From sequence record NZ_CP083859.1: DNA of 64,000 nucleotides. The stretch is one strand, 5' to 3'. The notes under the pieces were generated by a model. The model was not told the DNA's origin and made no database searches. It worked only from the letters and a program-made list of their open reading frames with translations. The position numbers and the translations under genes were made by a program. The stretch is from a plasmid. This document shows, in pieces, positions 1,015-25,031 of this stretch; position 1 is the first letter of the stretch; each line of letters starts with the position of its first letter.

Positions 1015-1046
1015 CCACAGACGACACAACAGTCTTCCTGTTTAAA

Positions 1047-8240: not shown

Positions 8241-8271
8241 TGAGAGTCTGCTCTGTGCCAAATGCTGACGC

Positions 8272-8900: not shown

Positions 8901-9000
8901 TATCAGCTCTTTCTCACTGATAGCCATCACGTCATCCTAAGTCAGCCAAAAGCAGACTGTACCAGACCAATAATCCCCAGGTGGCCGGCGTAAGCATAAT
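8901..9000. repeat. 100-bp traX 3' segment (copy 2, part of the intact gene)
   Basis: Identical to 3090-3189 apart from 1 mismatch. Confidence 0.85.
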
Positions 9001-9712: not shown

Positions 9713-10056
9713 GCTGTAGATTCCCCTGGCGACACGCGGTTAACAGCCAACCCTGAACATAATGCCAGAATGCCCTGCCGGTTTGCGTTGTGACCCTGAT
9801 CTTTAGTTTCTCCAGAATCTTGCGCACTGCAAATTCTGATTTATCACGCAGCACGCGCATTGCGCCTGCCACATCCTTATTCTGAATACAAATACTTAAA
9901 TTATGAAAATCGTTCACACCGCCCCCTTTCTTACACTCTTATTATCGGCTGCATGAATATTATATTTAGCGGAGTAGGAAAATTCCTAATAAAAATTCAT
10001 ATTAGCGCCCAAAATCTGGGCCAATTTATCGACCCTTTTATATATGTGGCGATCGC

Positions 10057-10557
10057 TCATGAATTATCTGTATTATTTGCTGAAATTTTTTCCCTGACCA
10101 GAGCGAAATCTTCACGAATAGATTTTGCGGCAGGCTTCCACCCTTTAGCCCATTCCTCGTTCATACGGCCTTCACTGACAATTTTGAGGGTGATGGCATA
10201 AGGGGTGCGCTGCAGTTTCTTCGACAGCCAGAGTATATGATCGTCGATTCTGTCATCCGGAATATCAGCAATAATCGAATGAATAAGGTCCAGGTCCTCA
10301 GGTGCCCACGGTTTTCCTGATCGCGGAAATACTTCATCCGGAAGGCGTGGTTTTTTTTCCTTTTCTTCTTTTACCTGCTTTTTAGCTTCTTTTTCCGCAG
10401 TGATGAGGCGCTGCCGCTCCGTTAACCCTCCCAGAATTGCAACCGTCCTGACCATATTTTCACGCTGCTCACGTGTAATATTTACTTCACCGCATATAAT
10501 GGCATTTAAAGTATCTACAAGGTTTTCCAGCTTGCTTTCTGTCAATTTTAACGTCAT
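10057..10557 (-). CDS. Hypothetical protein, co-oriented 12 bp downstream of the nuclease gene
   Basis: 166-aa ORF with a Lys/Glu-rich central segment. No motif recognised. Confidence 0.45.
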   Translation of the reverse strand: MTLKLTESKLENLVDTLNAIICGEVNITREQRENMVRTVAILGGLTERQRLITAEKEAKKQVKEEKEKKPRLPDEVFPRSGKPWAPEDLDLIHSIIADIPDDRIDDHILWLSKKLQRTPYAITLKIVSEGRMNEEWAKGWKPAAKSIREDFALVREKISANNTDNS

Positions 10558-10569
10558 TCAGAAATCTCC

Positions 10570-11064
10570 TTAATCATTATTCTTTTTTAGCCCATCCTGA
10601 TGCAGACTACGCCAGCGCCAGGGCTCTGTCTGACCCGGTTCTGACCAGAGTCCGACTGACTGACGGCGGGCTTCGGCCTCCAGAACAGCGTAGTCTGGCC
10701 GGACGGGTTTTCCGTGGTACCGGTATGCCCAGGCCAGGCCTTTGCGTACCTGTGCGGCATTTACATCCGTCATACCAAGCCATATGGTACCCAGCAGGCG
10801 TCCATAGCGATCCATTTCACTTCCCGTGACGGTTACGGGCCACTGAGCCACCATCGATGAGAGTTCCTGACGTGAACGCTGACCATAGGGCTGGCTCTTT
10901 TCCGGCGCATCGATGCCAGCCAGGCGAACGCGCGTCAGTCGGTTTCCTGGATCAAGTATCTCAACGGTATCCCCGTCCAGCACGCGCACAATCCGGCCGC
11001 TGATATCTGCACTGGCCGAAAACGCCACAACGAACAGGACCAGTGAGCAGAACTTCCGTTTCAT
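10570..11064 (-). CDS. nuc: Secreted thermonuclease (staphylococcal-nuclease-like Nuc)
   Basis: Signal peptide MKRKFCSLVLFVVAFSASA, then VRVLDGDTVEI...RVRLAGIDAPE...GRLLG, typical SNase-fold motifs. Confidence 0.8.
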   Translation of the reverse strand: MKRKFCSLVLFVVAFSASADISGRIVRVLDGDTVEILDPGNRLTRVRLAGIDAPEKSQPYGQRSRQELSSMVAQWPVTVTGSEMDRYGRLLGTIWLGMTDVNAAQVRKGLAWAYRYHGKPVRPDYAVLEAEARRQSVGLWSEPGQTEPWRWRSLHQDGLKKNND

Positions 11065-11123
11065 TATTTATTATCCCCGGTTGCATACCCTGCGGATATT
11101 AAGCTCGTAAATTTCAACTCGGC

Positions 11124-11483
11124 TTATCCTCCAACGAGGCTTTTTAAAGGTATGCCAAACATTGAATGTAATTTCCTGATCATGGGCAGCGTCAGATTAC
11201 GTTTGCGGTTAAGCACTTCATAGACCCGGTTAGATTTTCCAATTGCCGGCTCAAGATCTTTTACCGTCAGCCCCTGCTGTTCCATCCTGAATTTAATAGC
11301 TTCAATCGGATCCGGGGCTTCGATAGGAAAGTGTTTGTTTTCGTATTCATTAATCAGCACACACATGATTTCGAAAAAGTCTCCCTCCGGGGTATCAGCA
11401 GGAGGCTCGTCATCAAACATAGGCTCTACAGCGCGTAACGCATCTTCATAGTCCTGTTCAGTTTTAATTGGTTTAATCTGCAT
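11124..11483 (-). CDS. higA: HigA antitoxin (XRE-family HTH)
   Basis: 119 aa, downstream of the toxin with a 5-bp gap. HTH segment KSNRVYEVLNRKR. Confidence 0.75.
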   Translation of the reverse strand: MQIKPIKTEQDYEDALRAVEPMFDDEPPADTPEGDFFEIMCVLINEYENKHFPIEAPDPIEAIKFRMEQQGLTVKDLEPAIGKSNRVYEVLNRKRNLTLPMIRKLHSMFGIPLKSLVGG

Positions 11484-11488
11484 AGGGT

Positions 11489-11791
11489 TTACTCCAGGCT
11501 GACAGTTTCAGCATCTATTTTGTCATATTCTTTATGCGTACCAATGAATTTGATAAACATCCATCCTCGCTGGTATGCAATCGCAACAATTAACCGGTAG
11601 TCATTTCCCTTAATATTAAAAACCACTCGCCTGTTTTTAAGAATACTGGCACTGCGGTATTGTTCTTTGATTTCTGCCGGAGTTTTCCATTCAGCTTTAC
11701 TGGCCTCATCTACCCAGGCTTTTAGCGGCTGCTCTGCATCGGGATTCGCCGTCCAGAAATCCCTCAGTGTCTTGATAGCGATTATCTTCAT
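11489..11791 (-). CDS. higB: HigB toxin (RelE/ParE superfamily mRNA interferase)
   Basis: 100 aa, upstream of higA (toxin-first order typical of higBA). ...FNIKGNDYRLIVAIAYQRGWMFIKFIGTHKEYDKI. Confidence 0.75.
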   Translation of the reverse strand: MKIIAIKTLRDFWTANPDAEQPLKAWVDEASKAEWKTPAEIKEQYRSASILKNRRVVFNIKGNDYRLIVAIAYQRGWMFIKFIGTHKEYDKIDAETVSLE

Positions 11792-11801
11792 GTCATGATG
11801 A

Positions 11802-11858
11802 TAGTCCCATTTTAGGACTACTTCAAGTTTTTTGTCCCGTTATGGGACTTAAATTTAT
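11802..11858. promoter_or_regulatory. higBA promoter with two palindromic operators
   Basis: TAGTCC-N6-GGACTA (11802-11820) and GTCCC-gttat-GGGAC (11844-11858), 10-70 bp upstream of the higB start. Confidence 0.5.
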
Positions 11859-12396
11859 CTGAAGATACAGGGGGCAGTTTGGAGACCGGAGTTTTTTTAC
11901 GTTAAACGTATTATTTAACCGATCGCGAGGCGTAACGGAATGATTTTGCGTCAGAGGCTATCGCTTTTAATTTAACGCCCTTGCGATATCGCAGTTGCGG
12001 TCCAGTTCTGCTGGCTGCACGGGATATGACCTGGTATATTGAGACAACCGCCAGGCGTTAATACAGGGATACAACGAAGGAAATCAAGGCTCAACAGTTT
12101 GTCACATCAACGGGACGACAGGTGCTTACCGACAACGGCCAGCAAGGTATGGGTTGCGTAGCAGGTATCGGCTGAAAACTGAAAAGTGTCAGGGACGCGT
12201 AGCTGAAGCAATTTTTGCGAACTGCGCGGAACTGGATAACGACCAGTTTATCGAGACCATCGATTGGATTAGGCTCTATAAGCGCTGAATGCCACCATCA
12301 GGTATGTAACAGTTAAGTGATATACGAAGTGTAGGGATATTTTATGATTGGAGAATTAAAATCTGAGAGACAAACCATTGTGTACGGGAGGTCACA

Positions 12397-12648
12397 ATGA
12401 AAAACTGGACCAGAAACTTTATTGATGACATGAAGCATATCTGGCGGGAATTCAGGCGGGATATTGCTGAAACTAATGCTAAAAAAAACCTCAATGATGA
12501 TGATGTGGCTGGCGTTAGCCATTCCGTTGACTGGAATAATGTACCTGATTTAGATCCGCGAAAGGCGGTTAACAACCTCGATAACTTCTACTCACGGCAA
12601 TTAAGGGGAACGGAATATCCAGGTACGCGATATCAGCACAGGAACTAA
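12397..12648 (+). CDS. Hypothetical small protein
   Basis: 83-aa ORF with a GGGAGG RBS 8 bp upstream. Confidence 0.4.
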   Translation: MKNWTRNFIDDMKHIWREFRRDIAETNAKKNLNDDDVAGVSHSVDWNNVPDLDPRKAVNNLDNFYSRQLRGTEYPGTRYQHRN

Positions 12649-12876
12649 ATGTTTTGCGCATGCGCAAAATGCAGCTGAGTCTGCATTTTTTTGACTAAAA
12701 GCAATGTTCGAATCTTTTTGTTACCTCGTTTGCTGATGCCCAGCAATGTTGTCCGGCCACCAGTGCTGTACTGACGGGTACCAGCCCTGTTGCCGCAGTA
12801 AAATCACGACTACTACCGTACTGCTTCCCGTCACCAACCTCAGTTGAAATGGTACTGGCCGTTAGCGGGGGTTGAA

Positions 12877-13121
12877 GGCCAACCGGACGAGAACGCACGC
12901 GAAGTACATTTTTTGAGCGGTCAGACGAGTAAAGAAAACGAGGATTTTGTTTACTCTTTTCGTTGATGCCAGTAGCCATGCGGTTTCAGGTACTTTCAGT
13001 GTTAATAAACCCGGTAATCAAATCAACGTAAACCTGACGAACAACGCCACGACTTCATAGACCTAAAATCATGCAGTTAGGTTCTTAGCGTACATTTCCG
13101 CTCCATTGGGCTTCAAACCCC
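12877..13121 (+). repeat. Direct repeat copy 1 (about 250 bp) beginning with a Tn1000-like IR
   Basis: GGGGTTGAAGGCCAACCGGACGAGAACGCACGCGAAG resembles the gamma-delta IR (GGGGTTTGAGGGCCAATGGAACGAAAACGTACGTTAAG). About 97% identical to copy 2. Confidence 0.8.
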
Positions 13122-13342
13122 GACTATGACAAACTCATGCTTCCAGTTCGTCAGACACGGCAAAGCGCCGCTAAAAGGCAACAGCCTATGCGGTAGCGTG
13201 TTCATGCAGGGGAATAGGTCGAGAGGTCTTGAAGTATGCGCCTAACTGCGGCTACACTGAGATCACTGATTTGGTGACGTTGTTCCCCTAGAACACGCTA
13301 CCTGGCTAATCAGTCCTGAGAAAACTGGTTAGCCCGTCAAAG

Positions 13343-13372
13343 CCCGCGCCTGAGAACGCGGGTTTTTTCGTT
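13343..13372 (+). terminator. Rho-independent terminator (AAAGCCCGCGCC-tgagaa-CGCGGGTTTTTTCG)
   Basis: GC-rich hairpin followed by a T-run. Confidence 0.6.
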
Positions 13373-13449
13373 TAGGGAAAGAAGATACGCTGCACATCCC
13401 CGCCACGTCAATCAACCATCACGATCAGGCTATGATGCTAATGTCGAGC

Positions 13450-13623
13450 TTAACGCCAAACCAGAAGAATGCCAGCCACTAAAAAGACGAAAAAAGCGCA
13501 ATATAGACTGATGGCAGGCTTAGTTTCATGCTCCCCAGCAACAACAGTGACTAGCGAGACTAAGCTGACAAACAACAGCAAAAAGCCAATTGCAGTGTTA
13601 TGGGCATATACAAAATCCATCAT
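13450..13623 (-). CDS. Small hydrophobic protein (57 aa, 2 predicted TM helices) between the two repeat copies
   Basis: AAGGAA RBS. Translation MMDFVYAHNTAIGFLLLFVSLVSLVTVVAGEHETKPAISLYCAFFVFLVAGILLVWR. Not in the ORF track because it is under 60 aa. Confidence 0.35.
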   Translation of the reverse strand: MMDFVYAHNTAIGFLLLFVSLVSLVTVVAGEHETKPAISLYCAFFVFLVAGILLVWR

Positions 13624-13757
13624 AATATTCCTTTTTCAAATAAGAGCTGTGTTTGAGGTTAAAAGCCAAAGCAGGTTAGCAACAAAATCCGTAATCGGCA
13701 CGCCATAAAATCAGGTAAGCGTTAAGTGAGCGCCGTATTGACGGTTATTTATCGGTG

Positions 13758-14011
13758 GGGGTTGAAGGCCAACCGGACGAGAACGTACGCGAAGTACATT
13801 TTTTGAGCGGTCAGACGAGTAAAGAAAACGAGGATTTTGTTTACTCTTTTCGTTGATGCCAGTAGCCATGCGGTTTCAGGTACTTTCAGTGTTAATAAAC
13901 CCGGTAATCAAATCAACGTAAACCTGACGAACAACGCCACGACTTTATAGACCTAAAATCATGCAGTTAGGTTCTTAGCGTACATTTCCGCTCCATTGGG
14001 CTTCAAACCCC
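13758..14011 (+). repeat. Direct repeat copy 2 (Tn1000-like IR + about 215 bp)
   Basis: Same orientation as copy 1, about 890 bp to its right. Confidence 0.8.
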
Positions 14012-14140
14012 TAGATCCGAAAAATACCAGAACCGGAACCGGGTAACACAGCAGCCCAAAATATTCCTCTCCTGTGTTACCGACATTCCCCTCAGGCGTG
14101 GACATAATGACCGTGACAGCAAAACTGATGAGGAAAAGAA

Positions 14141-14374
14141 ATGAAATTCATCCCTGCCCGTACTGCCGCCGATGTGCTGGAGATAATGAAATCATACCGT
14201 GACGATCTGCGTGAAAAGACATTGTATGAACTATCCTGGTCTGTGCTGGAAAGGCTCATTTCACGTGATAGGGGTCCGCTTGGAAAACGGAAAATATCCT
14301 ACGCTAAGACTAATTTTATGACAGACGGCTTTGTTCGAAAAGCAGACTCAAAAATTATCGGTGGCTCTATATAA
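14141..14374 (+). CDS. Hypothetical small protein
   Basis: 77-aa ORF with a GAGGAAAAG RBS. Confidence 0.4.
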   Translation: MKFIPARTAADVLEIMKSYRDDLREKTLYELSWSVLERLISRDRGPLGKRKISYAKTNFMTDGFVRKADSKIIGGSI

Positions 14375-14435
14375 AGGATGACTACATAAAAAAGACACAG
14401 AAGTACCCTTCTGAATTCATGCCGAGGGGAACATT

Positions 14436-15344
14436 TTACTGGTTTATTTCTTCACGCAGACGTCTGATATCACGTAGCGGCGACTCGCCAAACTCTCTGC
14501 TGTACTCGCGGCTAAACTGGGAAGCACTCTCATAGCCTACTTTTATCGCCGCGCTCACCGCGTCAAGATGGCTGTTCAGCATTTGCTGTCGTGCCTCCTG
14601 AAGTCTGAGCTTCTTGATAAACTGTAGCGGACTCATCCCTGTCACTGACCGGAAATGGTGACGAAATGATGACGTGCTCATCGACGAGCGGGAAGCCAGC
14701 TCATCTATGCTGACTGGCTGAGTAAAGTGTTGTTTAAGCCAGGCAACTGCCCCGGAAATTTGTTGCCCAGGCGAACCCGGTGATGCGATATGGCGAAGCG
14801 CACTCCCATAGGGGCCTGTCAGCAGCCGAATGATGATCTCCTGCTGTATGAGCGGGGCAAGATGCTGAATTAAAGGTGGTTCGTCATTCAGTGACAGCAG
14901 TCTTCTCAACGTATCAGCAAGTCCCGCGTCAAGCTCATTAACGGCCAGCGGATCAAAAACCGATGATTTAGCCGCTGGTCGAAAAGGGATCATTGCCGCC
15001 GTCTGCATCACAGCAGCGGGCTCAATAGTGACCATCATCCCCAGGAACGGTGCGGATGCTGTCGCCGTCGCAACATGTGACACGACCGGAAGCTCAAGTG
15101 TGGTGAGCAGTGTTTGCCCTGCGCGGTAGCCAGTTACTTTTCCTCCCAGCACCACTTCTTTACTGCCCTGAATAACCACACCTAAGCCAATGCCATAGAT
15201 ACAATGCACGGGAGTGGTCGGTGCATTTCGTCGGTGCACCGATAACGACGGAACTACAGTTGTGAAATCACCATCGTATTGTGCAATCTCGTTAATTTTC
15301 TCAGCAAGCATTTTAAGGCTTTGTTCTAAGGAAAAGTCCTGCAT
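14436..15344 (-). CDS. AraC-family transcriptional regulator
   Basis: C-terminal AraC HTH (SSFRHHFRSVTGMSPLQFIKKLRLQEARQQM). Divergent from the oxidoreductase operon. Confidence 0.85.
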   Translation of the reverse strand: MQDFSLEQSLKMLAEKINEIAQYDGDFTTVVPSLSVHRRNAPTTPVHCIYGIGLGVVIQGSKEVVLGGKVTGYRAGQTLLTTLELPVVSHVATATASAPFLGMMVTIEPAAVMQTAAMIPFRPAAKSSVFDPLAVNELDAGLADTLRRLLSLNDEPPLIQHLAPLIQQEIIIRLLTGPYGSALRHIASPGSPGQQISGAVAWLKQHFTQPVSIDELASRSSMSTSSFRHHFRSVTGMSPLQFIKKLRLQEARQQMLNSHLDAVSAAIKVGYESASQFSREYSREFGESPLRDIRRLREEINQ

Positions 15345-15519
15345 CTCTCAGTCCTGATAACTCTCATGATTCAATAGTAACGTAAAAATTAAAATATCAT
15401 TTATGGAAGCCAATAACCCAATTCATGAAAAATAAATCATTTCAGGCAATGATTGTGGTGAAGTGAGCAAGCCATCTTAGCGCTTTGTGGTCAATAATGC
15501 TTCTATCATGTTCCTGCTT

Positions 15520-16626
15520 ATGGAGTGCTTTGTGACAGGTTTATTTTCTTCATTTTCGCTGAAAGATATTACGCTACGTAATCGGATAGCAGTTTCTCCC
15601 ATGTGTCAGTACCAGGCTGTCGATGGCTTTATCAATGACTGGCACAGTACCCATTATTCCATGCTCGCACGTGGGGGGGCTGGTCTCGTTGTCGTTGAAG
15701 CCACTGCCGTAGCACCTGAGGGCCGAATTACACCCGGTGATGTCGGATTATGGAGTGATGAACACATCTCAGGGCTGTCGTCCATTGCCGCAGCAATTAA
15801 GGCAGCCGGGGCTGTCGCAGGGATTCAGCTCGCCCATGCGGGCCGAAAAGCCGGCTGTACGCCACCATGGCAGGGTGGCGCACCTCTGGATCGAGATGAT
15901 ACACAGGCGTGGGAGCCCGTCGGGCCTTCCGCCGTCCCCTTCGTACCCGGGAATGACTATATTCCCCGTGAAATGACCAAAGATAACATCCGACAAACGC
16001 AGCAGGACTTTGCCCGAGCGGCAGAGCGTGCCTGCCAGGCTGGTTTCCAGTGGCTGGAACTGCATTTTGCCCATGGTTTCCTGGCACAAAGTTTTCTTTC
16101 CTCACAGTCAAATACCCGTTCGGATGAATATGGCGGTTCTCTTGAAGGGCGTGCCCGCTTCTTACTGGAGACAGTAGCTGAAGTCCGCAAGTTCTGGCCT
16201 GATAATTTCCCCTTAACGGTACGCCTCGGCGTGGTTGAATTTGATGACTGTCCTGAACATTCTTTCAGCGAATCACTCAAAGTAATCGGCTGGCTGAAGG
16301 ATGCCGGAGTTGATTTTGTTGATGTGGGTCTTTCTCTGGCAACGCCAGGTGAGAACATCCCGTGGGCGGCAAACTTTATGATTCCATGGGCTGCACGTGT
16401 TCGCCGGGAGAAAAACATTCCTGTCGGGACAAGCTGGATGATTACTCAGGCTAAAGAAGCGAATGAATTCATACAGGACGGTAAAGTAGATGTGATCTTT
16501 TTCGCCCGCACATTGCTGGCTAATCCGCACTGGCCATATCGCGCGGCGCGGGAGCTTGAAACCTCCGACCCGCACGCTGTATTACCCACACCCTATGCAT
16601 ACTGGTTACAAAACTGGTCCGAATGA
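15520..16626 (+). CDS. Old Yellow Enzyme family NADH:flavin oxidoreductase (YqjM/NemA-like ene-reductase)
   Basis: N-terminal LKDITLRNRIAVSPMCQY is the OYE FMN-binding signature; HAAHGFL-like HFAHGFLAQSFLS is also present. The start is uncertain: ATG 15487/15508/15520 or GTG 15532, the last with a GGAG RBS. Confidence 0.8.
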   Translation: MECFVTGLFSSFSLKDITLRNRIAVSPMCQYQAVDGFINDWHSTHYSMLARGGAGLVVVEATAVAPEGRITPGDVGLWSDEHISGLSSIAAAIKAAGAVAGIQLAHAGRKAGCTPPWQGGAPLDRDDTQAWEPVGPSAVPFVPGNDYIPREMTKDNIRQTQQDFARAAERACQAGFQWLELHFAHGFLAQSFLSSQSNTRSDEYGGSLEGRARFLLETVAEVRKFWPDNFPLTVRLGVVEFDDCPEHSFSESLKVIGWLKDAGVDFVDVGLSLATPGENIPWAANFMIPWAARVRREKNIPVGTSWMITQAKEANEFIQDGKVDVIFFARTLLANPHWPYRAARELETSDPHAVLPTPYAYWLQNWSE

Positions 16627-16705
16627 CCATAACAGGTTGCGTCGTCCCGGCCACGTAACCTGCCCTCATCAGGGGGATCCGTCCTGGTAGTGAAACCTTT
16701 ATTAA

Positions 16706-17890
<1,185 letters not shown>

Positions 17891-17931
17891 TTCCCGCCTG
17901 AGGTCAGACTTAAACTATTGGAAGAAATTTT

Positions 17932-18660
17932 ATGAATATTGAGAAGAAAAAAAGAGTCGCTGTTGTTACCGGATCATCCTCTGGTATAGGTGAAGCTATC
18001 GCACGTGAACTGGCAGGAAACGGAATTACGGTTGTGCTTTTGGCCCGTCGATTCGAACGTATTGATGTTTTGGCCAGCGAGCTGGGGCACGGAGCAATTG
18101 CGATTAAAGCTGACGTGACAGAGCGTGAATCGATTGTGGCTGCGGCTAATCAGGTTGAACAAGCGTTAGGTGGTGTGGATATCCTGATAAATAATGCCGG
18201 TGTAATGTTAACGGGCCCTTTTGATTCAAGCCAGCGTGATGAACACCGCCAGATGATAGAAACAAACCTCCTAGGAGCAATGACAGTAACAGAGGTATTT
18301 CTCCCACAATTGCGTCGAAACAAGGGCGATCTCGTCAATATCTCTTCTGTAGCAGGTCGGGTCGCACCTTCAGGGTTTGCAGCGTATGCGGCAACAAAAT
18401 GGGGGATAAATGGATGGTCAGAAGCACTTCGGGTGGAACTACAGCCTGACATTCGCGTCATGGTGATTGAGCCCGGCGCTATTGCAACAGAATTAGCCGA
18501 TCATATTACTCACGAGGAAAGCCAGTCTGTGGCAAAATCTGCACTGGACTGGGCTATCCCGCCTTCCGATATCGCTGAGGTCATAGCATTTGCTGTCAAC
18601 CTGCCGAAGCGCACGAGTATCAACGAGATATTGATCAGACCTACTGTTCAAATGATGTAA
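17932..18660 (+). CDS. Short-chain dehydrogenase/reductase (SDR)
   Basis: VAVVTGSSSGIGEAIA Rossmann motif, NNAG, S...YAATK catalytic motif. Confidence 0.85.
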   Translation: MNIEKKKRVAVVTGSSSGIGEAIARELAGNGITVVLLARRFERIDVLASELGHGAIAIKADVTERESIVAAANQVEQALGGVDILINNAGVMLTGPFDSSQRDEHRQMIETNLLGAMTVTEVFLPQLRRNKGDLVNISSVAGRVAPSGFAAYAATKWGINGWSEALRVELQPDIRVMVIEPGAIATELADHITHEESQSVAKSALDWAIPPSDIAEVIAFAVNLPKRTSINEILIRPTVQMM

Positions 18661-18733
18661 GAAAAAATATGCGGATCGCATAAAACCTGTTCCTTATGCG
18701 GTCCCTGCCTTCACCGTCGATGGAGGTTTATAT

Positions 18734-19318
18734 TCAATACTGTTGATGCCCTGCCTTTACCCGAAGTATGGTTTGTCGGGTTGTATTAAATTCCCGGGCT
18801 ATAGCGCTAATACTGATTCCGGCATCAATACGTTCTGCAACTGCTTGTTTCTGTTGTTCACTCAGCACGGGCGGACGACCAAAACGTTTACCTGAAGCCT
18901 TTGCTCGAGCAATCCCGGAGTGTGTGCGTTCAAGTAGCAAATCTCGCTCAAATTCCGCCACCGCTGAAATAACCTGCATGGTCATTCTCCCGGCTGCACT
19001 GGTCAGATCAACACCTCCTAGCGCCAGACAATGGACGCGAATATCTGACGCAGCCAGCTGCTCAACTGTTTTTCTTATATCCATGGCATTACGCCCAAGA
19101 CGATCCAGTTTAGTGACAATCAGCACATCACCATTTTCCATACGATCAAGTAGGCGGATAAAGCCGGGACGTTCACTGGCAGCAACAGAGCCACTGATAT
19201 GCTCCTCAATCAATCGCTGGGGTCTGATGGAAAATCCCGCAGCTTCAATTTCACGACGCTGATTTTCGGTTGTCTGCTCCAGTGTAGATACACGACAGTA
19301 GGCAAAAACACGTGACAT
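18734..19318 (-). CDS. tnpR: Serine recombinase / resolvase TnpR
   Basis: [15 protein letters not shown]...[15 protein letters not shown]... with a C-terminal HTH. The true start is the internal Met at 19318; the longer ORF call is an artefact. Confidence 0.85.
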
Positions 19319-19478
19319 AATGATACTTTCTGTACGAAAAGGATGTACGAATTGTAACGCATGTACGATAGTGAATTCACTGATTTTCGTACAGTAATGA
19401 TAATAGATGTACGAAACCGACCGGTTTCGGTCAGTGTAAAGTGATAACAAAAATAAACTATATGCAGAGGAAGCATCT
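19319..19478. promoter_or_regulatory. res site region with divergent tnpR/tnpA promoters
   Basis: Repeated TGTACGAA / TCGTACA motifs (resolvase-binding half-sites) between tnpR and tnpA. Confidence 0.55.
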
Positions 19479-22463
19479 ATGCCACGGAGACAAATACTCA
19501 GCAGTGAAGAAAAAGAACGCTTGTTGGTTGTGCCGGATGATGACGTTCTTCTGACACGCATGTGCTTTTTGAGTGAACATGACCTCGCGCTTATTAATAA
19601 ACACCGCAGACCCGCAAACCGCCTGGGCTTTGCTGTTTTACTCTGCTATTTGCGAGGGCCAGGGTATCCTCCCGACAAAAATGCGTCCCCTCACGGCGGA
19701 GTTATTTCCCGGCTTGCGGCTCATTTGAAAATTCAGCCTGATTTGTGGGCCGAGTATGCCTCAAGAGAAGTCACCCGCTGGGAGCATCTGGCCGAACTCT
19801 ACCGCTATCTGGAATTATCCCCCTTCAACCGGGCGCTACAAAAAACCTGCATTCGCCACCTTTATCCCCATGCTATGCGGACAGACAGAGGCTTTTTGCT
19901 TGCGGAGGAAATGCTCTCCTGGCTCCAACTCAATAAGGTGATTTTTCCTTCTGTTGATGTTGTCGAGCGAACCCTGGCCGAAGCAACAACGCTTGCAGAC
20001 AGAGCGGTCTTTTCTGCGCTTACTGCGCAGCTTGAGCCAAGACATAAAGCGGCGTTGGACCGTCTGCTGGTCTCTGAGGGGGAGCAATCTTCACGGCTGG
20101 CCTGGCTGCTCCAGCCTCCGGGAAAAATTAATGGTAAAAATGCCCTGCAACATATCGACCGGTTAAATTCGATTGAGTCGCTGGCACTGCCTGACGGCAT
20201 TGCGTTTTCCGTTCACCAGAACCGGCTCCTGAAACTCGCACGCGAAGGCAGGAAAATGAGTAGCCGTGACCTGGCAAAATTCACTGATGTTCGCCGTTAT
20301 GCCACGCTGGTTTGTGTCATATCGGAAGCCAGGGCCACCCTGACAGACGAAGTTATTGAGCTGCACGAGCGTATTCTGGGCAGTTTGCTCAGCAGGGCAA
20401 AACGCACACAGGCCGAGCGACTTCAGCAAACGGGAAAGCTGATTCAGAGCAAGCTGAAGCAATACGTTACCGTCGGGCAGGCATTGCTGAACGCCAGAGA
20501 GTCCGGTGAAGATCCCTGGGCCGCAATAGAAGACGTCCTTCCCTGGCAGGAGTTTATCAACAGCGTGGAAGAGACGCGGTTCCTGTCACGTAAGGACAAC
20601 TTCGACCCGTTGCATCTGATCACAGAAAAATACAGTACGCTGCGTAAATATGCCCCCCGGATGCTGGCCGCGTTGCAGTTCATGGCGGCACCCGCCGCAA
20701 TTCAACTCAGTGACGCGCTGGATATCGTCAGAGAGATGTATCGAAAACAACTCCGAAAAGTACCGCCTTCAGCGCCAACCGGGTTCATCCCGGAAAGCTG
20801 GAGAAAGGTGGTGATCACGCCCTCCGGCATTGATCGAAAATATTATGAATTTTGCGTGCTGAATGAGCTAAAGGGAGCCCTACGTTCTGGTGACATCTGG
20901 GTAAAGGGATCTCGCCGTTACAGGAATTTCGATGATTATCTGATCCCATCTGGTGATTTTGAAAAATCACTCCTGAATAACCAGCTACCCCTTGCTATTC
21001 CGGCCGACTGCAATGAATACATCGAGAGCCGTATGATGCTTCTGGCAGCGCGCCTGAAGGAAGTTAATGCGATGGCACTGGCCGGTGATTTGCCCGATGT
21101 TGATATATCGGACAAAGGCGTGAAAATTACCCCACTGGACAACAGTGTCCCTTCAGCAGTATCCCCGTTTGCCGATCTGGTTTATGGCATGCTGCCTCAT
21201 CCTAAAATTACTGAAATGCTGGATGAAGTAGATGGCTGGACCGGTTTTACCCACCATTTCACTCATCTCAAAAATCATCACGTCAGACCTAAAGACAGAA
21301 AGTTGTTACTGACCACCATCCTGGCTGACGGCATCAATCTTGGGCTGACAAAAATGGCTGAATCCTGTCCGGGAACGACCAAATCATCACTTGAGGGCAT
21401 TCAGGCCTGGTACATCAGGGATGAAACATATTCAGCAGCACTGGCTGAGTTGGTCAATGCCCAGAAAAAACGGCCTCTGGCGGCATTATGGGGCGATGGG
21501 ACAACCTCCTCGTCTGATGGGCAAAATTTTCGGGTGGGCAGCCATGGGCGTTATGCGGGTCAGGTCAATCTGAAGTACGGTCAGGAGCCAGGCGTTCAGA
21601 TTTACACGCATATTTCGGACCAGTACAGCCCGTTTTACACCAAAGTCATCAGCCGCGTGCGCGATTCTACTCACGTACTTGACGGCTTGCTGTATCACGA
21701 AAGCGAGCTGGAGATTACAGAGCATTACACCGACACCGCAGGTTTCACTGAGCATGTTTTCGCGCTGATGCATCTGCTCGGATTCGCTTTTGCGCCAAGG
21801 ATCCGGGATCTTCAGGACAAGAGACTGTTTATTCATGGAAAACCCGCGTTGTATCCGGGGCTTCAGTCAATTATTTCCACAACCAGCCTGAATCTAAAGG
21901 ACATTGAAACCCACTGGAGTGAGGTGCTACGTCTGGCGAGTTCTATAAAACAGGGAACGGTAACAGCATCACTGATGATGAAAAAGCTGGCCAGCTATCC
22001 GAAACAAAATGGTCTGGCAAAAGCACTGAGGGAAATTGGTCGCATCGAAAGGTCATTGTTTATGCTGGACTGGTTCCGGGATCCTTCCCTGCGTCGACGC
22101 ATACAGGCAGGGTTGAATAAAGGTGAGGCGCGGAATGCCCTTGCTCGCGCAGTCTTTATGCACCGGCTGGGGGAAATCAGAGATCGGGGACTGGAAAACC
22201 AGAGTTATCGGGCAAGTGGGCTCACCTTGCTGACTGCGGCGATCTCACTCTGGAATACGGTATATATAGAAAGAGCCATAGATTATCTGAAGCGAAAGGG
22301 GATCCCATTCAATGACCAACTGATTTCTCATCTGTCCCCTCTGGGATGGGAACACATCAACCTGAGCGGAGATTACGTCTGGCGAACAAACCTCAAGCTG
22401 GGACAGGGAAAATACCGTTCGTTACGCTCAGTAGACAGCAGTCTGTACAAAAAACAGGCTTAG
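19479..22463 (+). CDS. tnpA: Tn3-family DDE transposase TnpA
   Basis: 994 aa, the typical Tn3-family length, with conserved blocks. The stop codon lies inside the terminal IR. Confidence 0.9.
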
Positions 22464-22496
22464 CGTAGGATATTTTCCGTTTTCCAAGCGGACCCC
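22459..22496 (-). repeat. Tn3-family 38-bp terminal IR (GGGGTCCGCTTGGAAAACGGAAAATATCCTACGCTAAG)
   Basis: Tn21/Tn5393-like IR. It overlaps the tnpA stop. Confidence 0.8.
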
Positions 22497-22498
22497 AA

Positions 22499-22762
22499 GA
22501 AGATCTGGAGGCTATCTGGGACTACAGCTTCAGACAGTTCGGGGTTGTTCAGGCGGATGCGTATATCGGGCGTATAGCCGCAGTGTTTGATGTGCTGGCC
22601 ATGCATGACATCGGCACGCATCGCGCAGAGCTGGGAGAAGATATCTGCTCGCTGCCGGTGGAACAGCACATGATCTATTTTGTGTCATCACATTCGGTGG
22701 TTACGATCATACGTATTCTCAGTCAGTCTCAGGATACGGCGCGGCATGAACCATGGATATAA
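22499..22762 (+). pseudogene. parE: parE-type toxin gene truncated at about codon 12 by the transposon IR
   Basis: The reading frame starting immediately after the IR translates EDLEAIWDYSFRQFGVVQADAYIG...CSLPVEQHMIYFVSSHSVVTIIRILSQSQD, a ParE/RelE fold. No start codon and no antitoxin gene upstream. Confidence 0.6.
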
Positions 22763-22902
22763 CTGAATGTGTAAAATAACAATCAAATTAAATACTTAGT
22801 TCGCGCAATCTATCTTATGTTAAATTTAGTCCGTCGTTCATTTAGTTCATAACAGGCCGCAGACTACGATTAATCATACACAGACATAATCTTTCATTTG
22901 GT

Positions 22903-22930
22903 TTAAAAAAACGCTCCCGATTGGGAGCGT
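22903..22930 (-). terminator. Rho-independent terminator of pcoE2 (minus strand)
   Basis: ACGCTCCC-gatt-GGGAGCGT hairpin with an A-run on the plus strand (T-run on the minus strand), 50 bp past the pcoE2 stop. Confidence 0.6.
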
Positions 22931-22980
22931 AAGCCAGTGACTTCGGCGTTAAATGAGGGTCTGACAAGTGGAGCTGCGGG

Positions 22981-23415
22981 TTAATTCTGCGTGATCTGGC
23001 TGCGATGCTTTTCAGCCTGCTGCTGATGAATAACGGAAGATTGACCATTATTCGCCTTCTCATGCATAACAGCGGCTTTCTCATGCTCGTTCATTTCGGA
23101 AAATGATTTTGCTGTTTCGTTAGAAGCTGCTGGCTTGGATTTCATCATTTTGTTATGCATTTCAGCCATGTCCTGATGGGCAGCAGAATTGCCGTTTTGC
23201 ATCATGTCATGGGACATTGCGGCCTGATCGTGACTGCTCATATCCATCATTGTCATGCTGTCTCCCTGAACTGCGCTTTTTTCAGCAGATGACTGCATCT
23301 GATGGGCAGGAGCCTGTGCATTATTTACCTGGTCATGCATGTTCATTGTCTCTGCAGCCATGGCGGATGAAGCGACAGCCATAATGGCAACAAATGATAC
23401 GAGAATCTTTTTCAT
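22981..23415 (-). CDS. pcoE: PcoE (SilE-family periplasmic metal-binding protein), pcoE2 position
   Basis: Signal peptide MKKILVSFVAIMAVASSAMA. Met/His-rich with MNEHEKAAVMHE motifs. The true start is the internal Met (the ORF-track start is an extension). Confidence 0.85.
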   Translation of the reverse strand: MKKILVSFVAIMAVASSAMAAETMNMHDQVNNAQAPAHQMQSSAEKSAVQGDSMTMMDMSSHDQAAMSHDMMQNGNSAAHQDMAEMHNKMMKSKPAASNETAKSFSEMNEHEKAAVMHEKANNGQSSVIHQQQAEKHRSQITQN

Positions 23416-23587
23416 GGTTGGGTCTCCGGTGTTTTCATACCCGAACAATCAATGCTTATAACAGAGAAAGCATTTGATCTCAGGGCTGGTTGATCATCAC
23501 GCCAGGAACCGGGCGATTGAATTATCACGCTGTCCTGATTTATGGCTGATTATAAAAAACCGCCTCTGTTTATCGCGTGACTGAACG

Positions 23588-23603
23588 ATGACATTTTTGT
23601 CAC
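23588..23603. promoter_or_regulatory. CusR/PcoR-type box upstream of pcoE2 (ATGACATTTTTGTCAC)
   Basis: TGACA-N6-TGTCA palindrome about 175 bp upstream of pcoE2. Confidence 0.45.
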
Positions 23604-23630
23604 CTTCCGGGTTTCTCCTGAATAACGGTA

Positions 23631-25031
23631 TTAATCCATTAACAGACGCACACTGAACACAATTTCCCGCCCCTGCTGTTCTGCTGACAGCTCGCCGCCG
23701 TGAGCATGAATGATCGACCTTGTAATTGATAATCCCAGCCCCGCGCCTTCCGTGTTGTAGAACCTTGATGAGTCTGCGCGATAGAACCGGTCAAACAAAC
23801 GTTCCAGATTAGCGGGAACCTGGCCGGACATCGTATTCGTAATCATCACGTTCACACAGTCACTGTCACGCTCAAGGTGTATCGCTGTACAGGTGTTATC
23901 GGGAGAATACTTGATTGCATTGGAAAGCAGGTTACTGAAAGCACGTCGGAGCATATCGCTGTCTCCGGCAACAACGCCCTCTCCTTCAACCGTGATTGTC
24001 TTTCCTGTTTCGTCTGCCAGGGGCTCGAACAACTCACGTAATTCATTCAGTTCGGCTGCCAGATCCACATCATGTTTATCCAGCCGCAGCAGACCATGCT
24101 CTGAACGTGCCAGAAAAAGCATGTCACTGGTCATTCGTGACAACCTTTTCAGTTCTTCCAGGTTAGCGAATAAAATTTCGCGGTAATGCGAAACATCCCT
24201 TTCCTTAGCCAGTGCAAACTGCGTCTGCATCATCAGATTACTGACTGGTGTGCGCAGCTCATGCGCGATGTCAGACGAGAAATCTGACAGTTTCCGGAAT
24301 GCCCCCTCCAGGCGATCAAACATATTATTGAACTCCTGCATGGTCTCAGAGATTTCCGGCGGAGCCAGATCGGGATTTAGACGCTGATCCAGGCTGTGTA
24401 CAGTCATGGAGGAAGCCAGACTGGTCATTTCCCGTAACGGTTTCAGACCAATACGTGTGGTCAGCCAGCCCAGAAAAACAGAAATAAAGACCAGACCGAT
24501 ATTGAACCAGAACAGCCAGGTACTGAGTTTGTCCATAAACAGGGTGTGATACCCAGTATCCGTGGCAACCGTAATGATGACATGTTTGCTTTTACCCTGT
24601 TCCGGCGTCATGGCAACCCGCCGCGAGATACTGCGGTACACGGTGTTATTTTCTTCCGTCTGGATCATATAGTCGAGAATATCACCCGACTTATTAAGCA
24701 GGACCGCTGGAACAACAGAATTTTTGGCATAGAGTTCAACAATTTTTTCATTTTCCATGTTTTTTATAGAAATGAATAAACCATTGTGCCCTACCATCGC
24801 ATCGTTTATTTTTTCTGATAATGACTTAATATCCGTTTTGTTCCGGAACGTCTCTGTTTTAAGAAACTCTTCGGTGAGCTGAAGTTTACCTGTCAGAAAA
24901 TCGCGGTCCTGATTATCGAAATAGCCATTAAGGGTGCTAATCAGGATAAAACTTGATAACCACCATACCGTAAGCATCACCGCAGAAAAAATCAGGCTCA
25001 GGCGTGTGGTCAGGGAAATTTTGAACCTCAC
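23631..25031 (-). CDS. pcoS: Copper-sensing histidine kinase PcoS
   Basis: Two TM helices and a periplasmic loop, HAMP, H-box DIAHELRTP, ATPase G-boxes. Overlaps pcoR by 4 bp. Confidence 0.9.

What the first reader, a model, noticed from the sequence alone, without database searches (positions are those of the whole stretch)
11880..22762. 10.6-kb Tn3-family transposon with 68%-matched terminal IRs carrying an AraC-OYE-AKR-SDR cargo and cutting a parE toxin gene
Divergent tnpR/tnpA with a res site is the Tn3/Tn1000 arrangement, yet the right IR is Tn21/Tn5393-like. The best candidate left IR (11880-11917) shares only the GGGG...TTGGA...CGGA...TACG.TAA skeleton. The cargo is a regulator plus three different oxidoreductase classes, one Tat-exported, which suggests an electrophile/quinone/aldehyde detoxification module rather than a classical resistance gene. 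The right IR abuts codon 12 or so of a ParE-family toxin frame (22499-22762) with no antitoxin present. The left IR abuts the higBA operator region. No 5-bp target duplication is present, so the element has undergone adjacent deletion or recombination.
Basis: partly seen in the sequence, partly recalled or inferred. Interest (0 to 1): 0.55.

Follow-up and report, generated by a model that had tools for sequence, protein, structure and literature searches.

The report
Mis-bounded 8.2-kb Tn3-family cargo transposon
This is an ordinary, intact and widely spread 8.2-kb Tn3-family transposon with perfect 38-bp ends, not the 10.6 kb proposed, that carries a regulator and three reductase genes and sits beside a 349-bp deletion that removed parD and the start of parE.

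Summary
The element spans window 14271-22496 (8,226 bp). Its 38-bp inverted repeats are identical (38/38). The proposed "68%-matched" left repeat near 11870-11917 scores no better than chance, and it lies in plasmid backbone that other plasmids carry uninterrupted.

Gene order is IRL, a YqhC-like AraC regulator, a XenA-like flavin reductase, a Tat-signal aldo-keto reductase, an SDR, tnpR, res, tnpA, IRR.

The transposition module and ends are about 92% identical in DNA to the arsenic transposon Tn2503 of the Tn2501/Tn2502/Tn2503 group. That group is already described with divergent tnpR/tnpA and a res site between them. IS5075, known to target Tn21-type ends, sits in these ends in relatives. 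The "odd" combination is therefore known.

The same 8,226-bp unit occurs in at least eight flanking contexts, three with perfect 5-bp target duplications.

The missing duplication and the cut parE are explained. Plasmid CP055996.1 has the same left junction and an intact parDE. The window lacks exactly the 349 bp next to IRR.

The aldehyde/electrophile-detoxification role of the cargo is plausible but untested. Interest is low: a new member of a known kind.

The parts
14271..14308 (+). IRL, the true left terminal inverted repeat: GGGGTCCGCTTGGAAAACGGAAAATATCCTACGCTAAG
   Evidence: It is a 38/38 match to the reverse complement of 22459-22496. It is identical to the Tn2503 IR. All other copies of the element diverge from the window exactly at 14270/14271.
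14436..15344 (-). AraC-family regulator with an AraC_N sensor domain (YqhC-like), transcribed divergently from the reductase genes
   Evidence: Pfam AraC_N 1.2e-38 plus HTH_18/HTH_AraC. It is 31% identical over its full length to E. coli YqhC, E 5e-48. An AraC_N regulator divergent from a related AKR recurs across diverse bacteria.
15532..16626 (+). Old-yellow-enzyme flavin oxidoreductase of the XenA type. Alternative in-frame starts are at 15487 and 15520.
   Evidence: Pfam Oxidored_FMN 2.6e-70. The best solved relative is Pseudomonas putida xenobiotic reductase A, E about 1e-126 over the full length. It has Phe where XenA chains read Tyr (HFAHGF versus HFAHGY).
16718..17890 (+). Aldo-keto reductase (AKR13-like) with an N-terminal twin-arginine (Tat) signal: SRRNFL at residues 19-24, then a hydrophobic stretch and AHA at 43-45
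   Evidence: Pfam Aldo_ket_red 1.9e-70 over residues 77-367. The nearest solved relative is perakine reductase, 5e-73. A GGAG Shine-Dalgarno sequence lies 7 nt upstream of the ATG at 16718. The RR motif and hydrophobic region are conserved in homologues from 8 diverse taxa. The motifs [13 protein letters not shown] and YYQHRVD, which I take from memory to carry the AKR catalytic D/Y/K/H residues, are present.
17932..18660 (+). Classical short-chain dehydrogenase/reductase (SDR)
   Evidence: Pfam adh_short 1.6e-54. This exact protein is indexed in 508 blocks of the public assembly collection.
18734..19318 (-). tnpR, a serine resolvase of 194 aa
   Evidence: Pfam Resolvase 3.1e-37 plus HTH_7. 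The best 120 database relatives listed are 88-92% identical and come mostly from Enterobacterales.
19319..19478 (.). [quoted passage not shown] It holds five TGTACGA/TCGTACA half-sites, a dyad at 19362-19393, and a dyad at 19408-19433 (TGTACGAAACCGACCGGTTTCGGTCA) that is the candidate crossover site I next to tnpA.
   Evidence: Half-sites and conservation in Tn2503 and pENTE01 are shown. The natural hybrid L095 has only 5 differences in the 5,163 bp up to 19433, then 628 mismatches in the next 3,063 bp. The recombination breakpoint therefore falls at this dyad.
19479..22463 (+). tnpA, an intact Tn3-family DDE transposase of 994 aa
   Evidence: Pfam DDE_Tnp_Tn3 3.2e-148 plus DUF4158. NCBIfam transpos_Tn3 1188.9 bits. 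It is 100% identical to the annotated Tn3 family transposase of NZ_CP056149.1 and 55-56% identical to TnAs3/ISPa38-family transposases.
22459..22496 (-). IRR, the right terminal inverted repeat. It overlaps the last codons of tnpA.
22497..22762 (+). 5'-truncated parE toxin remnant. The first 31 nt of parE are missing; the readable frame runs from 22499 with the stop at 22760-22762.
   Evidence: Pfam ParE_toxin positions 9-88 of 89. The intact parDE in pECL_A aligns from parE nt 32 onward. CP055996.1 (L091) has the 349 bp missing here immediately after IRR.
14141..14270 (+). Left flank, not part of the element: the first 43 codons of a 288-aa hypothetical gene, cut by IRL
   Evidence: The intact gene is in pYK16-mcr-10 (L005 2629-3495). 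Homology stops at window 14270.
11870..11906 (+). It is not a transposon end; it is a chance resemblance in backbone upstream of higB.
   Evidence: 21/38 ungapped matches. Semi-global score 11, against 10-12 for unrelated window sites, 16 for the diverged IR at 3190-3227, and 34-38 for the real IRs. Backbone homology runs straight through it in plasmids whose block continues into IS elements rather than this transposon.

Best explanation
Window 14271-22496 is an intact, autonomous 8,226-bp Tn3-family replicative transposon.

Structure:
- Its ends are perfect 38-bp inverted repeats.
- The transposition module is tnpR <- res -> tnpA. Together with the IRs it belongs to the Tn2501/Tn2502/Tn2503 lineage, which pairs a Tn21-like transposase and Tn21-like ends with a divergently oriented resolvase.
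- The cargo slot lies between IRL and the 3' end of tnpR. Tn2503 carries arsHRBC there. This element carries a YqhC-like AraC regulator, transcribed divergently from a probable operon of a XenA-like flavin ene-reductase, a Tat-signal aldo-keto reductase and an SDR.

How it works:
- Shown from sequence comparison: the unit inserts with 5-bp target duplications, and it recombines with relatives at res.
- Inferred from the family: it moves by paste-and-copy through a cointegrate, which TnpR resolves at res.

History of this copy. The flanks do not match (TGATA versus AAGAA) because of a deletion that starts exactly at IRR. An otherwise near-identical plasmid has the same left junction and an intact parD-parE to the right. 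The window has lost the 349 bp between IRR and parE nt 32. The most likely cause (inferred) is intramolecular replicative transposition of the right end into parE. An equivalent route is a second copy landing in parE, followed by res x res resolution. Both remove parD and the toxin start together, so no toxic orphan remains.

Cargo function (inferred). The regulator senses reactive aldehydes or electrophiles and switches on reductases that detoxify them, one of which acts in the periplasm.
For: Boundaries:
- Perfect 38/38 IRs.
- Homology with pENTE01 runs over exactly 14271-22496; Tn2503 aligns at the IRL and over 18746-22496, ending at the IRR terminus.
- Ten further loci carry the same unit. 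All that retain an uninterrupted end have flanks that diverge precisely at the IR termini.

Mobility:
- 5-bp duplications ATGAT (L090, chromosomal), AGATA (L094) and ATTAA (L098).
- L098 is inserted at window 2057-2061, and the window is the matching empty site.

Family:
- Pfam and NCBIfam hits for TnpA and TnpR.
- 92% DNA identity of 18746-22496, and a 100% identical IR, to Tn2503. Its published layout is tnpR/tnpA divergent with res between (PMC3316555).
- TnpA is 55-56% identical to TnAs3/ISPa38 and 44% to a Tn5403-family fragment.
- IS5075 sits at IR position 21/22 in relatives. This IS is known to target Tn21-type TIRs (PMC8269217).

res:
- Repeated TGTACGA half-sites conserved in relatives.
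- The natural hybrid L095 switches parent exactly at the 19408-19433 dyad.

Deletion history:
- L091 left flank equals window 11932-14270 at 100%. Its right flank bases 350-2164 equal window 22497-24311 at 100%, and bases 1-349 (parD plus parE nt 1-31) are absent from the window.
- L093 equals the window minus 2209-14270, i.e. a second deletion that starts exactly at IRL.

Cargo:
- 31% full-length identity to YqhC, E 5e-48. YqhC activates the divergent yqhD-dkgA aldehyde reductases (PMC6115493).
- XenA match at 1e-126 and AKR13 match.
- Conserved Tat motif and a good ribosome-binding site.
- The AraC_N regulator/AKR pairing is conserved across diverse bacteria.
Against: - Even the L091-type arrangement has no target duplication (TGATA versus ACCAT), so at least one earlier rearrangement is unreconstructed.
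- Neither reciprocal junction (parE 5' end joined to IRL, or IRR followed by TGATA and the rest of the left-flank gene) exists in the plasmid collection.
- Intramolecular transposition cannot be told apart from recombination between two copies on sequence alone. Tn3-family target immunity (from memory) would disfavour intramolecular hops.
- No experiment links the cargo to any substrate.
- The OYE has Phe at the position of XenA Tyr183, which may alter ene-reductase chemistry.
- RefSeq annotates the AKR from an internal Met, without the signal peptide.
- Subgroup placement rests on pairwise identities, not on a phylogeny.
Confidence: 0.85

Rival explanations
1. A 10.6-kb element spans about 11880-22496, with a degenerate (about 68% matched) left IR next to the higBA operator. 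The 11880-14270 segment would then be part of the transposon.
For: A GGGG...TTGGA...CGGA...TACG.TAA skeleton does exist at 11870-11906. It gives 21/38 ungapped matches and about 25 matches with one gap.
Against: - A perfect IR lies at 14271-14308.
- The candidate scores 11 in the scan, within the range of chance hits.
- pENTE01 and at least eight other contexts share only 14271-22496.
- 11800-14012 is contiguous backbone in plasmids whose block runs on into IS elements rather than this transposon.
- L093 has 2209-14270 deleted, yet keeps a complete element.
Confidence: 0.01
2. The mismatched flanks arose by recombination, homologous or TnpR-mediated, between two independently inserted copies. 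One copy would sit in the 288-aa left-flank gene and one in parE, on the same or on sister plasmids. No single intramolecular transposition event would be involved.
For: - Recombination between related elements is documented here. L095 is a res-site hybrid. The neighbouring 3190-8900 element has unlike ends and a 100-bp flanking duplication. IS5075 copies in the IRs accompany a rearranged order in CP123379.1.
- Several related Tn3-family ends lie in this one window.
- The outcome is identical in sequence to an adjacent deletion.
Against: - No plasmid with the reciprocal junctions or with a parE insertion flanked by AAGAA on both sides was found.
- The series L091 to window to L093 consists of deletions nested exactly at the two IR termini of a nearly identical element with 5-6 mismatches. 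Transposon-end-initiated deletions explain this more economically.
Confidence: 0.3
3. The cargo is not a stress-detoxification module. It would instead be a catabolic or biotransformation cluster for a specific plant- or soil-derived compound, such as an alkaloid, coumarin, quinone or steroid-like ketone, with the AraC protein sensing that compound.
For: - The closest solved AKR is a plant alkaloid reductase, perakine reductase.
- XenA is implicated in 8-hydroxycoumarin/quinoline metabolism (from memory).
- The AKR's relatives are mostly from soil and plant-associated bacteria.
- A 92%-identical copy sits in the poplar endophyte Enterobacter sp. 638.
- The element carries no transporter or ring-cleavage genes that would argue either way.
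Against: - Three unlinked reductase classes, with no downstream pathway enzymes, look like broad detoxification rather than a pathway.
- The regulator's only characterised relative found here is the aldehyde-responsive YqhC.
- The exact element is common in clinical and wastewater Enterobacterales.
Confidence: 0.25

Closest known systems
Tn2503 (Yersinia pestis Java 9) and its relatives Tn2502 and Tn2501
   Same: The 38-bp IR is identical. DNA from the tnpR 3' end through res and tnpA to IRR is about 92% identical. The layout is the same: IRL, cargo, tnpR <- res -> tnpA, IRR. The res region shows three areas of dyad symmetry (PMC3316555).
   Different: The cargo slot (14309-18745) holds AraC/OYE/AKR/SDR instead of arsHRBC. 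The length is 8,226 bp versus 6,769 bp. No sequence of Tn2501 itself was available for direct comparison.
Tn21-subgroup transposons (Tn21, Tn1696, TnAs3, ISPa38)
   Same: The IR is of the Tn21 type and, in relatives, is used as a target by IS5075 at IR position 21/22 (PMC8269217). These are the closest named transposase families in the plasmid search, at 55-56% amino-acid identity.
   Different: In Tn21-type elements tnpR and tnpA are co-directional with res upstream of tnpR (PMC7157771). Here they are divergent with res between them. There is no integron or mer module.
Tn3 and Tn1000 (gamma-delta)
   Same: The genes are divergent (tnpR <- res -> tnpA), res has several subsites with the putative crossover site next to tnpA, and insertion makes a 5-bp target duplication (PMC7157771).
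   Different: The IR sequence and the transposase are not of the Tn3 subgroup. No Tn3/Tn2-type transposase name appeared among the 45 rows sampled from the 5,000 best plasmid hits, whose identities ran down to about 55%.
E. coli yqhC / yqhD-dkgA aldehyde-response locus
   Same: An AraC_N-type activator is transcribed divergently from NAD(P)H-dependent reductases that include an AKR. The regulator is 31% identical over its full length. YqhC induces its neighbours on aldehyde exposure (PMC6115493; PMC8262776).
   Different: The enzymes differ: a XenA-like OYE, a Tat-signal AKR13-like protein and an SDR, against the Fe-ADH YqhD and the cytoplasmic DkgA. This module is transposon-borne. No inducer or substrate is known.

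Membership tests
Tn3 family (class II replicative transposons) | Large DDE transposase of the Tn3 type (about 1,000 aa) | tested here: met
   994 aa. Pfam DDE_Tnp_Tn3 3.2e-148 plus DUF4158. NCBIfam transpos_Tn3 1188.9 bits against a cut-off of 500.
Tn3 family (class II replicative transposons) | Terminal inverted repeats of about 38 bp, starting GGGG and ending TAAG | tested here: met
   14271-14308 and 22459-22496 match 38/38: GGGGTC...ACGCTAAG.
Tn3 family (class II replicative transposons) | 5-bp target-site duplication on insertion | tested here: met
   It is absent in the window copy (TGATA/AAGAA). It is present for the same element in L090 (ATGAT), L094 (AGATA) and L098 (ATTAA). L098's empty site is window 2057-2061.
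Tn3 family (class II replicative transposons) | Site-specific resolution system (resolvase plus res) | tested here: met
   Serine resolvase. A 160-bp spacer with five TGTACGA half-sites and two dyads. A natural recombinant breaks at the 19408-19433 dyad. Biochemical resolution was not tested.
Tn3 family (class II replicative transposons) | Replicative transposition through a cointegrate | not testable with these tools
   This needs a mating-out or cointegrate assay. IR-adjacent nested deletions are consistent with replicative intramolecular events.
Tn2501/Tn2502/Tn2503 lineage | High identity of IRs, tnpR, res and tnpA to a named member | tested here: met
   100% identical 38-bp IR, and 92% DNA identity over 18746-22496, to Tn2503 from pPCP of Y. 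pestis Java 9.
Tn2501/Tn2502/Tn2503 lineage | Divergent tnpR and tnpA with res between, and cargo between IRL and tnpR | tested here: met
   Gene order. It is the same in the Tn2503 annotation and publication.
Tn21 subgroup of the Tn3 family | TnpA clusters phylogenetically with Tn21/Tn501 | tested here: inconclusive
   TnAs3 and ISPa38 were the only named families among the 45 rows sampled from the best plasmid hits, at 55-56% identity. A Tn5403-family fragment is 44% identical. No tree with all seven subgroup references was built. That TnAs3 belongs to the Tn21 subgroup is from memory.
Tn21 subgroup of the Tn3 family | tnpR and tnpA co-directional with res upstream of tnpR (typical arrangement) | tested here: not met
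   tnpR is on the minus strand, tnpA on the plus strand, and res lies between them. The typical Tn21/Tn501 arrangement is described in PMC7157771.
YqhC-type aldehyde-responsive regulon | AraC_N sensor domain plus AraC HTH, divergent from NAD(P)H reductase genes | tested here: met
   Pfam AraC_N plus HTH. 31% identity to YqhC, E 5e-48. The divergent arrangement is seen and is conserved in homologous loci.
YqhC-type aldehyde-responsive regulon | Induction by aldehydes, and protection against them | not testable with these tools
   This needs reporter and tolerance assays.
Tat-exported proteins | S/T-R-R-x-F-L motif, hydrophobic region and A-x-A cleavage site at the N-terminus | tested here: met
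   SRRNFL at residues 19-24, then [15 protein letters not shown] and AHA at 43-45. The same architecture occurs in homologues from Enterobacter, Variovorax, Corallococcus, Nostoc, Chryseobacterium and others. Actual export was not tested.

The most novel reading that the evidence does not exclude
The cargo is a mobile, inducible tolerance determinant against reactive aldehydes or electrophiles, possibly including aldehyde biocides such as glutaraldehyde, spreading on plasmids of hospital and wastewater Enterobacterales. Its Tat-signal aldo-keto reductase would represent an uncharacterised clade of periplasmic AKRs, exported folded with bound nicotinamide cofactor in the way glucose-fructose oxidoreductase is.
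Probability: 0.2. Interest if true: 0.55.

Novelty: new member of a known kind. Interest (0 to 1): 0.22.

Why it matters
Mostly this is a correction. The element is a textbook Tn3-family transposon whose apparent oddities (degenerate IR, mixed Tn3/Tn21 features, missing duplication) disappear once the true left end is found.

Its modest value has two parts.
- It is a clean natural series. An insertion with a target duplication, a 349-bp IRR-adjacent deletion and a 12-kb IRL-adjacent deletion all occur in one plasmid backbone, together with a hybrid that crosses over at res. These illustrate how such transposons remodel plasmids and can silently remove a toxin-antitoxin addiction module.
- The exact element is widespread (its SDR is indexed in 508 blocks of public assemblies) in Enterobacter, Klebsiella and E. 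coli from clinical and wastewater sources, yet its four-gene reductase cargo is uncharacterised. If the cargo confers tolerance to aldehydes, quinones or disinfectants, it would be a mobile non-antibiotic resistance trait worth tracking.

Tried and rejected
- I searched the plasmid collection for the reciprocal junctions (parD-parE 5' end plus AAGAA joined to IRL, and IRR joined to TGATA plus the rest of the 288-aa gene). No junction-spanning hit was found.
- I looked in the window for the missing parD/parE 5' end and for the 3' part of the left-flank gene. Both are absent.
- I considered that the identical 5-mer next to two IR ends (CCCC|TATCA at 8901 and TGATA|GGGG at 14266) marks an inversion or shared event. 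I rejected this because both 5-mers are native to their uninterrupted backbones (3090-3189 copy; pYK16-mcr-10), so it is coincidence or target preference.
- I scanned GTDB species-representative genomes with the AKR for a chromosomal source of the cargo. The best match is only 70% identical at the amino-acid level, in an E. ludwigii 827-kb megaplasmid with AraC-OYE-AKR synteny (L008).
- Literature searches found no name or description of this transposon with its cargo. The Enterobacter sp. 638 genome paper lists only 'one IS from the Tn3 family'.
- I found no open-access literature on Tat-exported AKRs.
- The TnpR homologue search returned only generic names and did not help classification.
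- The promoter and terminator scan of the cargo was not above the shuffled expectation for promoters.
- CP055996.1 is not in the annotated collections, so its organism and annotation could not be read.
- The Tn2503 copy in pPCP and the pENTE01 copy also lack matching 5-bp flanks, so they could not serve as duplication evidence.

Full report
**1. What is in the sequence**

ORF listing and domain scans show, left to right:
- an AraC-family regulator at 14436-15344, minus strand (AraC_N plus HTH);
- an old-yellow-enzyme flavin oxidoreductase at 15532-16626;
- an aldo-keto reductase at 16718-17890;
- an SDR at 17932-18660;
- a serine resolvase tnpR at 18734-19318, minus strand;
- a 160-bp spacer;
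- a 994-aa Tn3-family transposase at 19479-22463 (DDE_Tnp_Tn3 3.2e-148; NCBIfam transpos_Tn3 1189 bits against a cut-off of 500).

The right inverted repeat ends at 22496. Immediately after it, the frame 22499-22762 matches Pfam ParE_toxin from profile position 9 to 88 of 89.

**2. The left end is elsewhere**

An inverted-repeat search found arms 14271-14330 and 22437-22496. The outer 38 bp are identical: GGGGTCCGCTTGGAAAACGGAAAATATCCTACGCTAAG. The element is therefore 14271-22496, or 8,226 bp.

- It matches the IR at 21/38 ungapped positions, or about 25 with one gap.
- In a semi-global scan of both strands of the whole window it scores 11.
- Unrelated sites score 10-12, a separate diverged Tn3-type end at 3190-3227 scores 16, and the true ends score 38, 38 and 34.

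External evidence agrees:
- Megablast hits to related transposons start at query position 2870-2872 (window about 14270) and end at 11097 (window 22496).
- Enterobacter sp. 638 plasmid pENTE01 carries a collinear copy of exactly 8,226 bp with no indel.
- Window 11800-14012 is contiguous backbone in several Enterobacter plasmids, where it runs on into IS elements rather than into this transposon.

**3. Is it a real mobile unit?**

Looking up the exact SDR protein showed it indexed in 508 blocks of public assemblies. Ten loci were returned. In all of them the flanks diverge exactly at the IR termini.

Three copies have perfect 5-bp target duplications:
- ATGAT, in a 4.58-Mb chromosome (L090);
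- AGATA (L094);
- ATTAA (L098).

L098 is inserted into the same plasmid backbone as the window. Its left flank equals window 1-2061 and its right flank equals window 2057-4220. The window is therefore the empty site, and the 5-bp overlap is the duplication. The copies differ from the window element by only 5-12 substitutions. The element is thus an active or recently active transposon with the canonical Tn3-family footprint.

**4. Why there is no duplication here and why parE is cut**

The window flanks are TGATA and AAGAA.
- The left flank is the first 43 codons of a 288-aa hypothetical gene that is intact in pYK16-mcr-10.
- The right flank is parE from nt 32. The intact parD-parE is seen in pECL_A and many Enterobacter plasmids.
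- Neither missing half is in the window, and no reciprocal junction exists in the plasmid collection.

The explanation comes from L091 (CP055996.1):
- Its left flank is 100% identical to window 11932-14270, with the same TGATA|IRL junction.
- Its right flank is collinear with pECL_A and contains intact parD and parE.
- Bases 350-2164 of that flank are 100% identical to window 22497-24311.

The window therefore differs by a deletion of exactly the 349 bp that abut IRR. These comprise the parD promoter region, parD, and parE nt 1-31.

A second relative type (L093, L003, L096) equals the window minus 2209-14270. That is a 12,062-bp deletion starting exactly at IRL.

Deletions nested at the transposon termini are the expected product of intramolecular replicative transposition. 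An equivalent route is a second insertion in direct orientation followed by res x res resolution. Removing parD together with the start of parE explains why a toxin remnant persists without an antitoxin. The L091-type arrangement itself lacks a duplication (TGATA versus ACCAT), so at least one earlier event is unresolved.

**5. The res site**

The tnpR-tnpA spacer (19319-19478) contains five TGTACGA/TCGTACA half-sites. It has a dyad at 19362-19393 and a second dyad next to tnpA at 19408-19433. All are conserved in Tn2503 and in pENTE01.

Locus L095 is a natural hybrid. It differs from the window element at only 5 of the 5,163 positions up to 19433. It then has 628 mismatches in the remaining 3,063 bp. 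The parental switch falls at the 19408-19433 dyad. This is where site I (the crossover site) is expected in elements with divergent tnpR/tnpA (PMC7157771). It is in-nature evidence for resolvase-mediated exchange.

The pENTE01 copy is also mosaic: cargo 93-99%, tnpR 82-84%, tnpA 84-95% identical.

**6. Family placement**

The 38-bp IR is identical to that of Tn2503, and window 18746-22496 is 92% identical to it. Tn2503 is the arsenic-resistance transposon of Y. pestis Java 9. It was described as a class II transposon related to Tn2502 and Tn2501, with divergent tnpR/tnpA and a three-part res between them (PMC3316555).

Among named transposase families in plasmids, the closest are TnAs3 and ISPa38 at 55-56% identity. 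A Tn5403-family fragment is 44% identical.

In relatives, IS5075 is inserted at IR position 21/22. IS5075 and IS4321 are known to target the terminal repeats of Tn21-like transposons (PMC8269217, citing Partridge and Hall 2003).

The 'Tn3 arrangement but Tn21-like IR' combination is therefore the known signature of the Tn2501/2502/2503 lineage, not an anomaly. Many relatives carry other cargoes (ars, chrA, cad, PAS-MCP, LysR/SDR/ADH genes) alongside the same transposition module. In Tn2503 the cargo occupies the same slot between IRL and tnpR.

I found no name or description for the version with this cargo. TnCentral could not be consulted.

**7. The cargo**

- *Regulator.* It is 31% identical over its whole length to E. 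coli YqhC, E 5e-48. YqhC activates the divergently transcribed aldehyde reductases yqhD-dkgA on aldehyde exposure (PMC6115493; PMC8262776).
- *OYE.* It is closest to Pseudomonas putida xenobiotic reductase A, E about 1e-126. It has Phe where XenA chains have Tyr (HFAHGF versus HFAHGY). From memory, that Tyr is XenA's proton donor.
- *AKR.* It is AKR13-like, with perakine reductase as the nearest solved structure. The motifs [13 protein letters not shown] and YYQHRVD, which I take from memory to carry the catalytic D/Y/K/H residues, are present.
- *AKR signal peptide.* The 390-aa reading frame begins with a twin-arginine signal (SRRNFL, a hydrophobic stretch, AHA) and is preceded by a GGAG ribosome-binding site. 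The same signal architecture is conserved in homologues from Enterobacter, Chthoniobacterales, Variovorax, Corallococcus, Alphaproteobacteria, Nostoc, Chryseobacterium and Saprospiraceae. The extension is therefore translated. RefSeq's shorter 327-aa call probably misses it.
- *Conservation.* An AraC_N regulator divergent from a related AKR, often with an SDR, recurs widely. An E. ludwigii megaplasmid has AraC-OYE-AKR at 60-70% amino-acid identity. No near-identical chromosomal donor was found.

The detoxification reading is thus supported by analogy only.

**8. Surroundings**

The window begins with IncFII repA and continues past the element into the pco copper cluster.

Upstream lies another Tn3-family structure at 3190-8900. 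It has unlike ends (74% matched over 54 nt), a diguanylate-cyclase/GFA/PAS-MCP cargo, an IS21 remnant and no tnpA. It is flanked by a 100-bp direct duplication at 3090-3189 and 8901-9000. It looks like a recombinant of two neighbouring insertions. This region is evidently a hotspot of Tn3-family activity.

**9. Verdict**

The finding is an ordinary, well-understood kind of element with corrected boundaries, so interest is low. The only open question of some interest is the function of the widespread reductase cargo and its Tat-signal AKR.

Noticed in passing
window 3090-9000: A second Tn3-family structure spans 3190-8900. Its ends are unlike: IR-like 3190-3227 against IR 8863-8900, 74% matched over 54 nt, with the latter matching the main element's IR at 36/38. 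It carries diguanylate-cyclase, GFA and PAS-MCP genes and an IS21 remnant, but no tnpA. It is flanked by a 100-bp direct duplication (3090-3189 = 8901-9000, 98%). It is probably a recombinant of two insertions about 95 bp apart.
   Followed up: partly
window 16718-16906 (AKR N-terminus); loci L008-L010, L012, L015-L017, L023, L046: The aldo-keto reductase belongs to a clade with a conserved twin-arginine signal peptide across very diverse bacteria. NAD(P)H-dependent AKRs in the periplasm seem undescribed in the searchable literature. RefSeq annotates the gene from an internal Met, without the signal.
   Followed up: partly
window 16030-16130 (OYE active-site motif HFAHGF): The XenA-like OYE has Phe where XenA chains read Tyr (HFAHGF versus HFAHGY). 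It therefore scores slightly higher against PDB entries 4uth-4utm, which also read Phe there, than against XenA chains that read Tyr. That this Tyr is Tyr183, XenA's proton donor, is from memory. The catalytic consequence is unknown.
   Followed up: partly
L095 (DAFWSZ010000015.1) versus window 19408-19434: This natural hybrid transposon differs from the window element at only 5 positions up to 19433, and is about 79.5% identical from 19434 onward. The crossover therefore sits at the putative res site I.
   Followed up: yes
L098 (JAKMMR010000013.1) versus window 2057-2061: The same transposon is inserted at a different place in the same plasmid backbone, with a 5-bp duplication ATTAA. The window is the empty site.
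   Followed up: yes
L093/L003/L096 versus window 2209-14270: These relatives carry the window's right junction (IRR|AAGAA-parE') but have lost 12,062 bp, starting exactly at IRL. The lost segment includes traX, higBA and the 3190-8900 element.
   Followed up: yes
L001, L003, L096, L097 (IR positions 21/22); window equivalents 14291/14292 and 22475/22476: In relatives, IS5075 is inserted in one or both IRs of this element at the same position. CP123379.1 has a rearranged gene order around two such copies in opposite orientation. The window copy has no IS5075 in its IRs.
   Followed up: partly
window 12867-13121 and 13757-14011: A 255-bp direct repeat (99% identical, 890 bp apart) lies in the gene-poor backbone between higBA and the transposon. 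ORF 12695-12979 resembles, by eye, a frameshifted IS110-family transposase remnant.
   Followed up: no
window 8896-8905 and 14266-14275: Two IR ends are each followed outward by the same 5-mer (CCCC|TATCA, and its complement TGATA|GGGG). Both 5-mers are native to the uninterrupted backbones, so this is coincidence or target preference rather than a shared event.
   Followed up: yes
window 11124-11791 and 10570-11064: An intact higB (100 aa, HigB_toxin) and higA (119 aa, HTH_3) pair lies next to a thermonuclease-family gene, between traX and the transposon. A palindromic sequence at about 11806-11850, just upstream of higB, is a likely operator.
   Followed up: no
L007 (Tn2503 in pPCP) and L002 (pENTE01): Neither the Tn2503 copy in pPCP (TTGTA / TGGCA) nor the pENTE01 copy of this element (TCCTT / TAAAA) has matching 5-bp flanks at the GGGG...CCCC termini. 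Post-insertion rearrangement seems common in this lineage. The published Tn2503 coordinates start 2 bp outside the IR.
   Followed up: no
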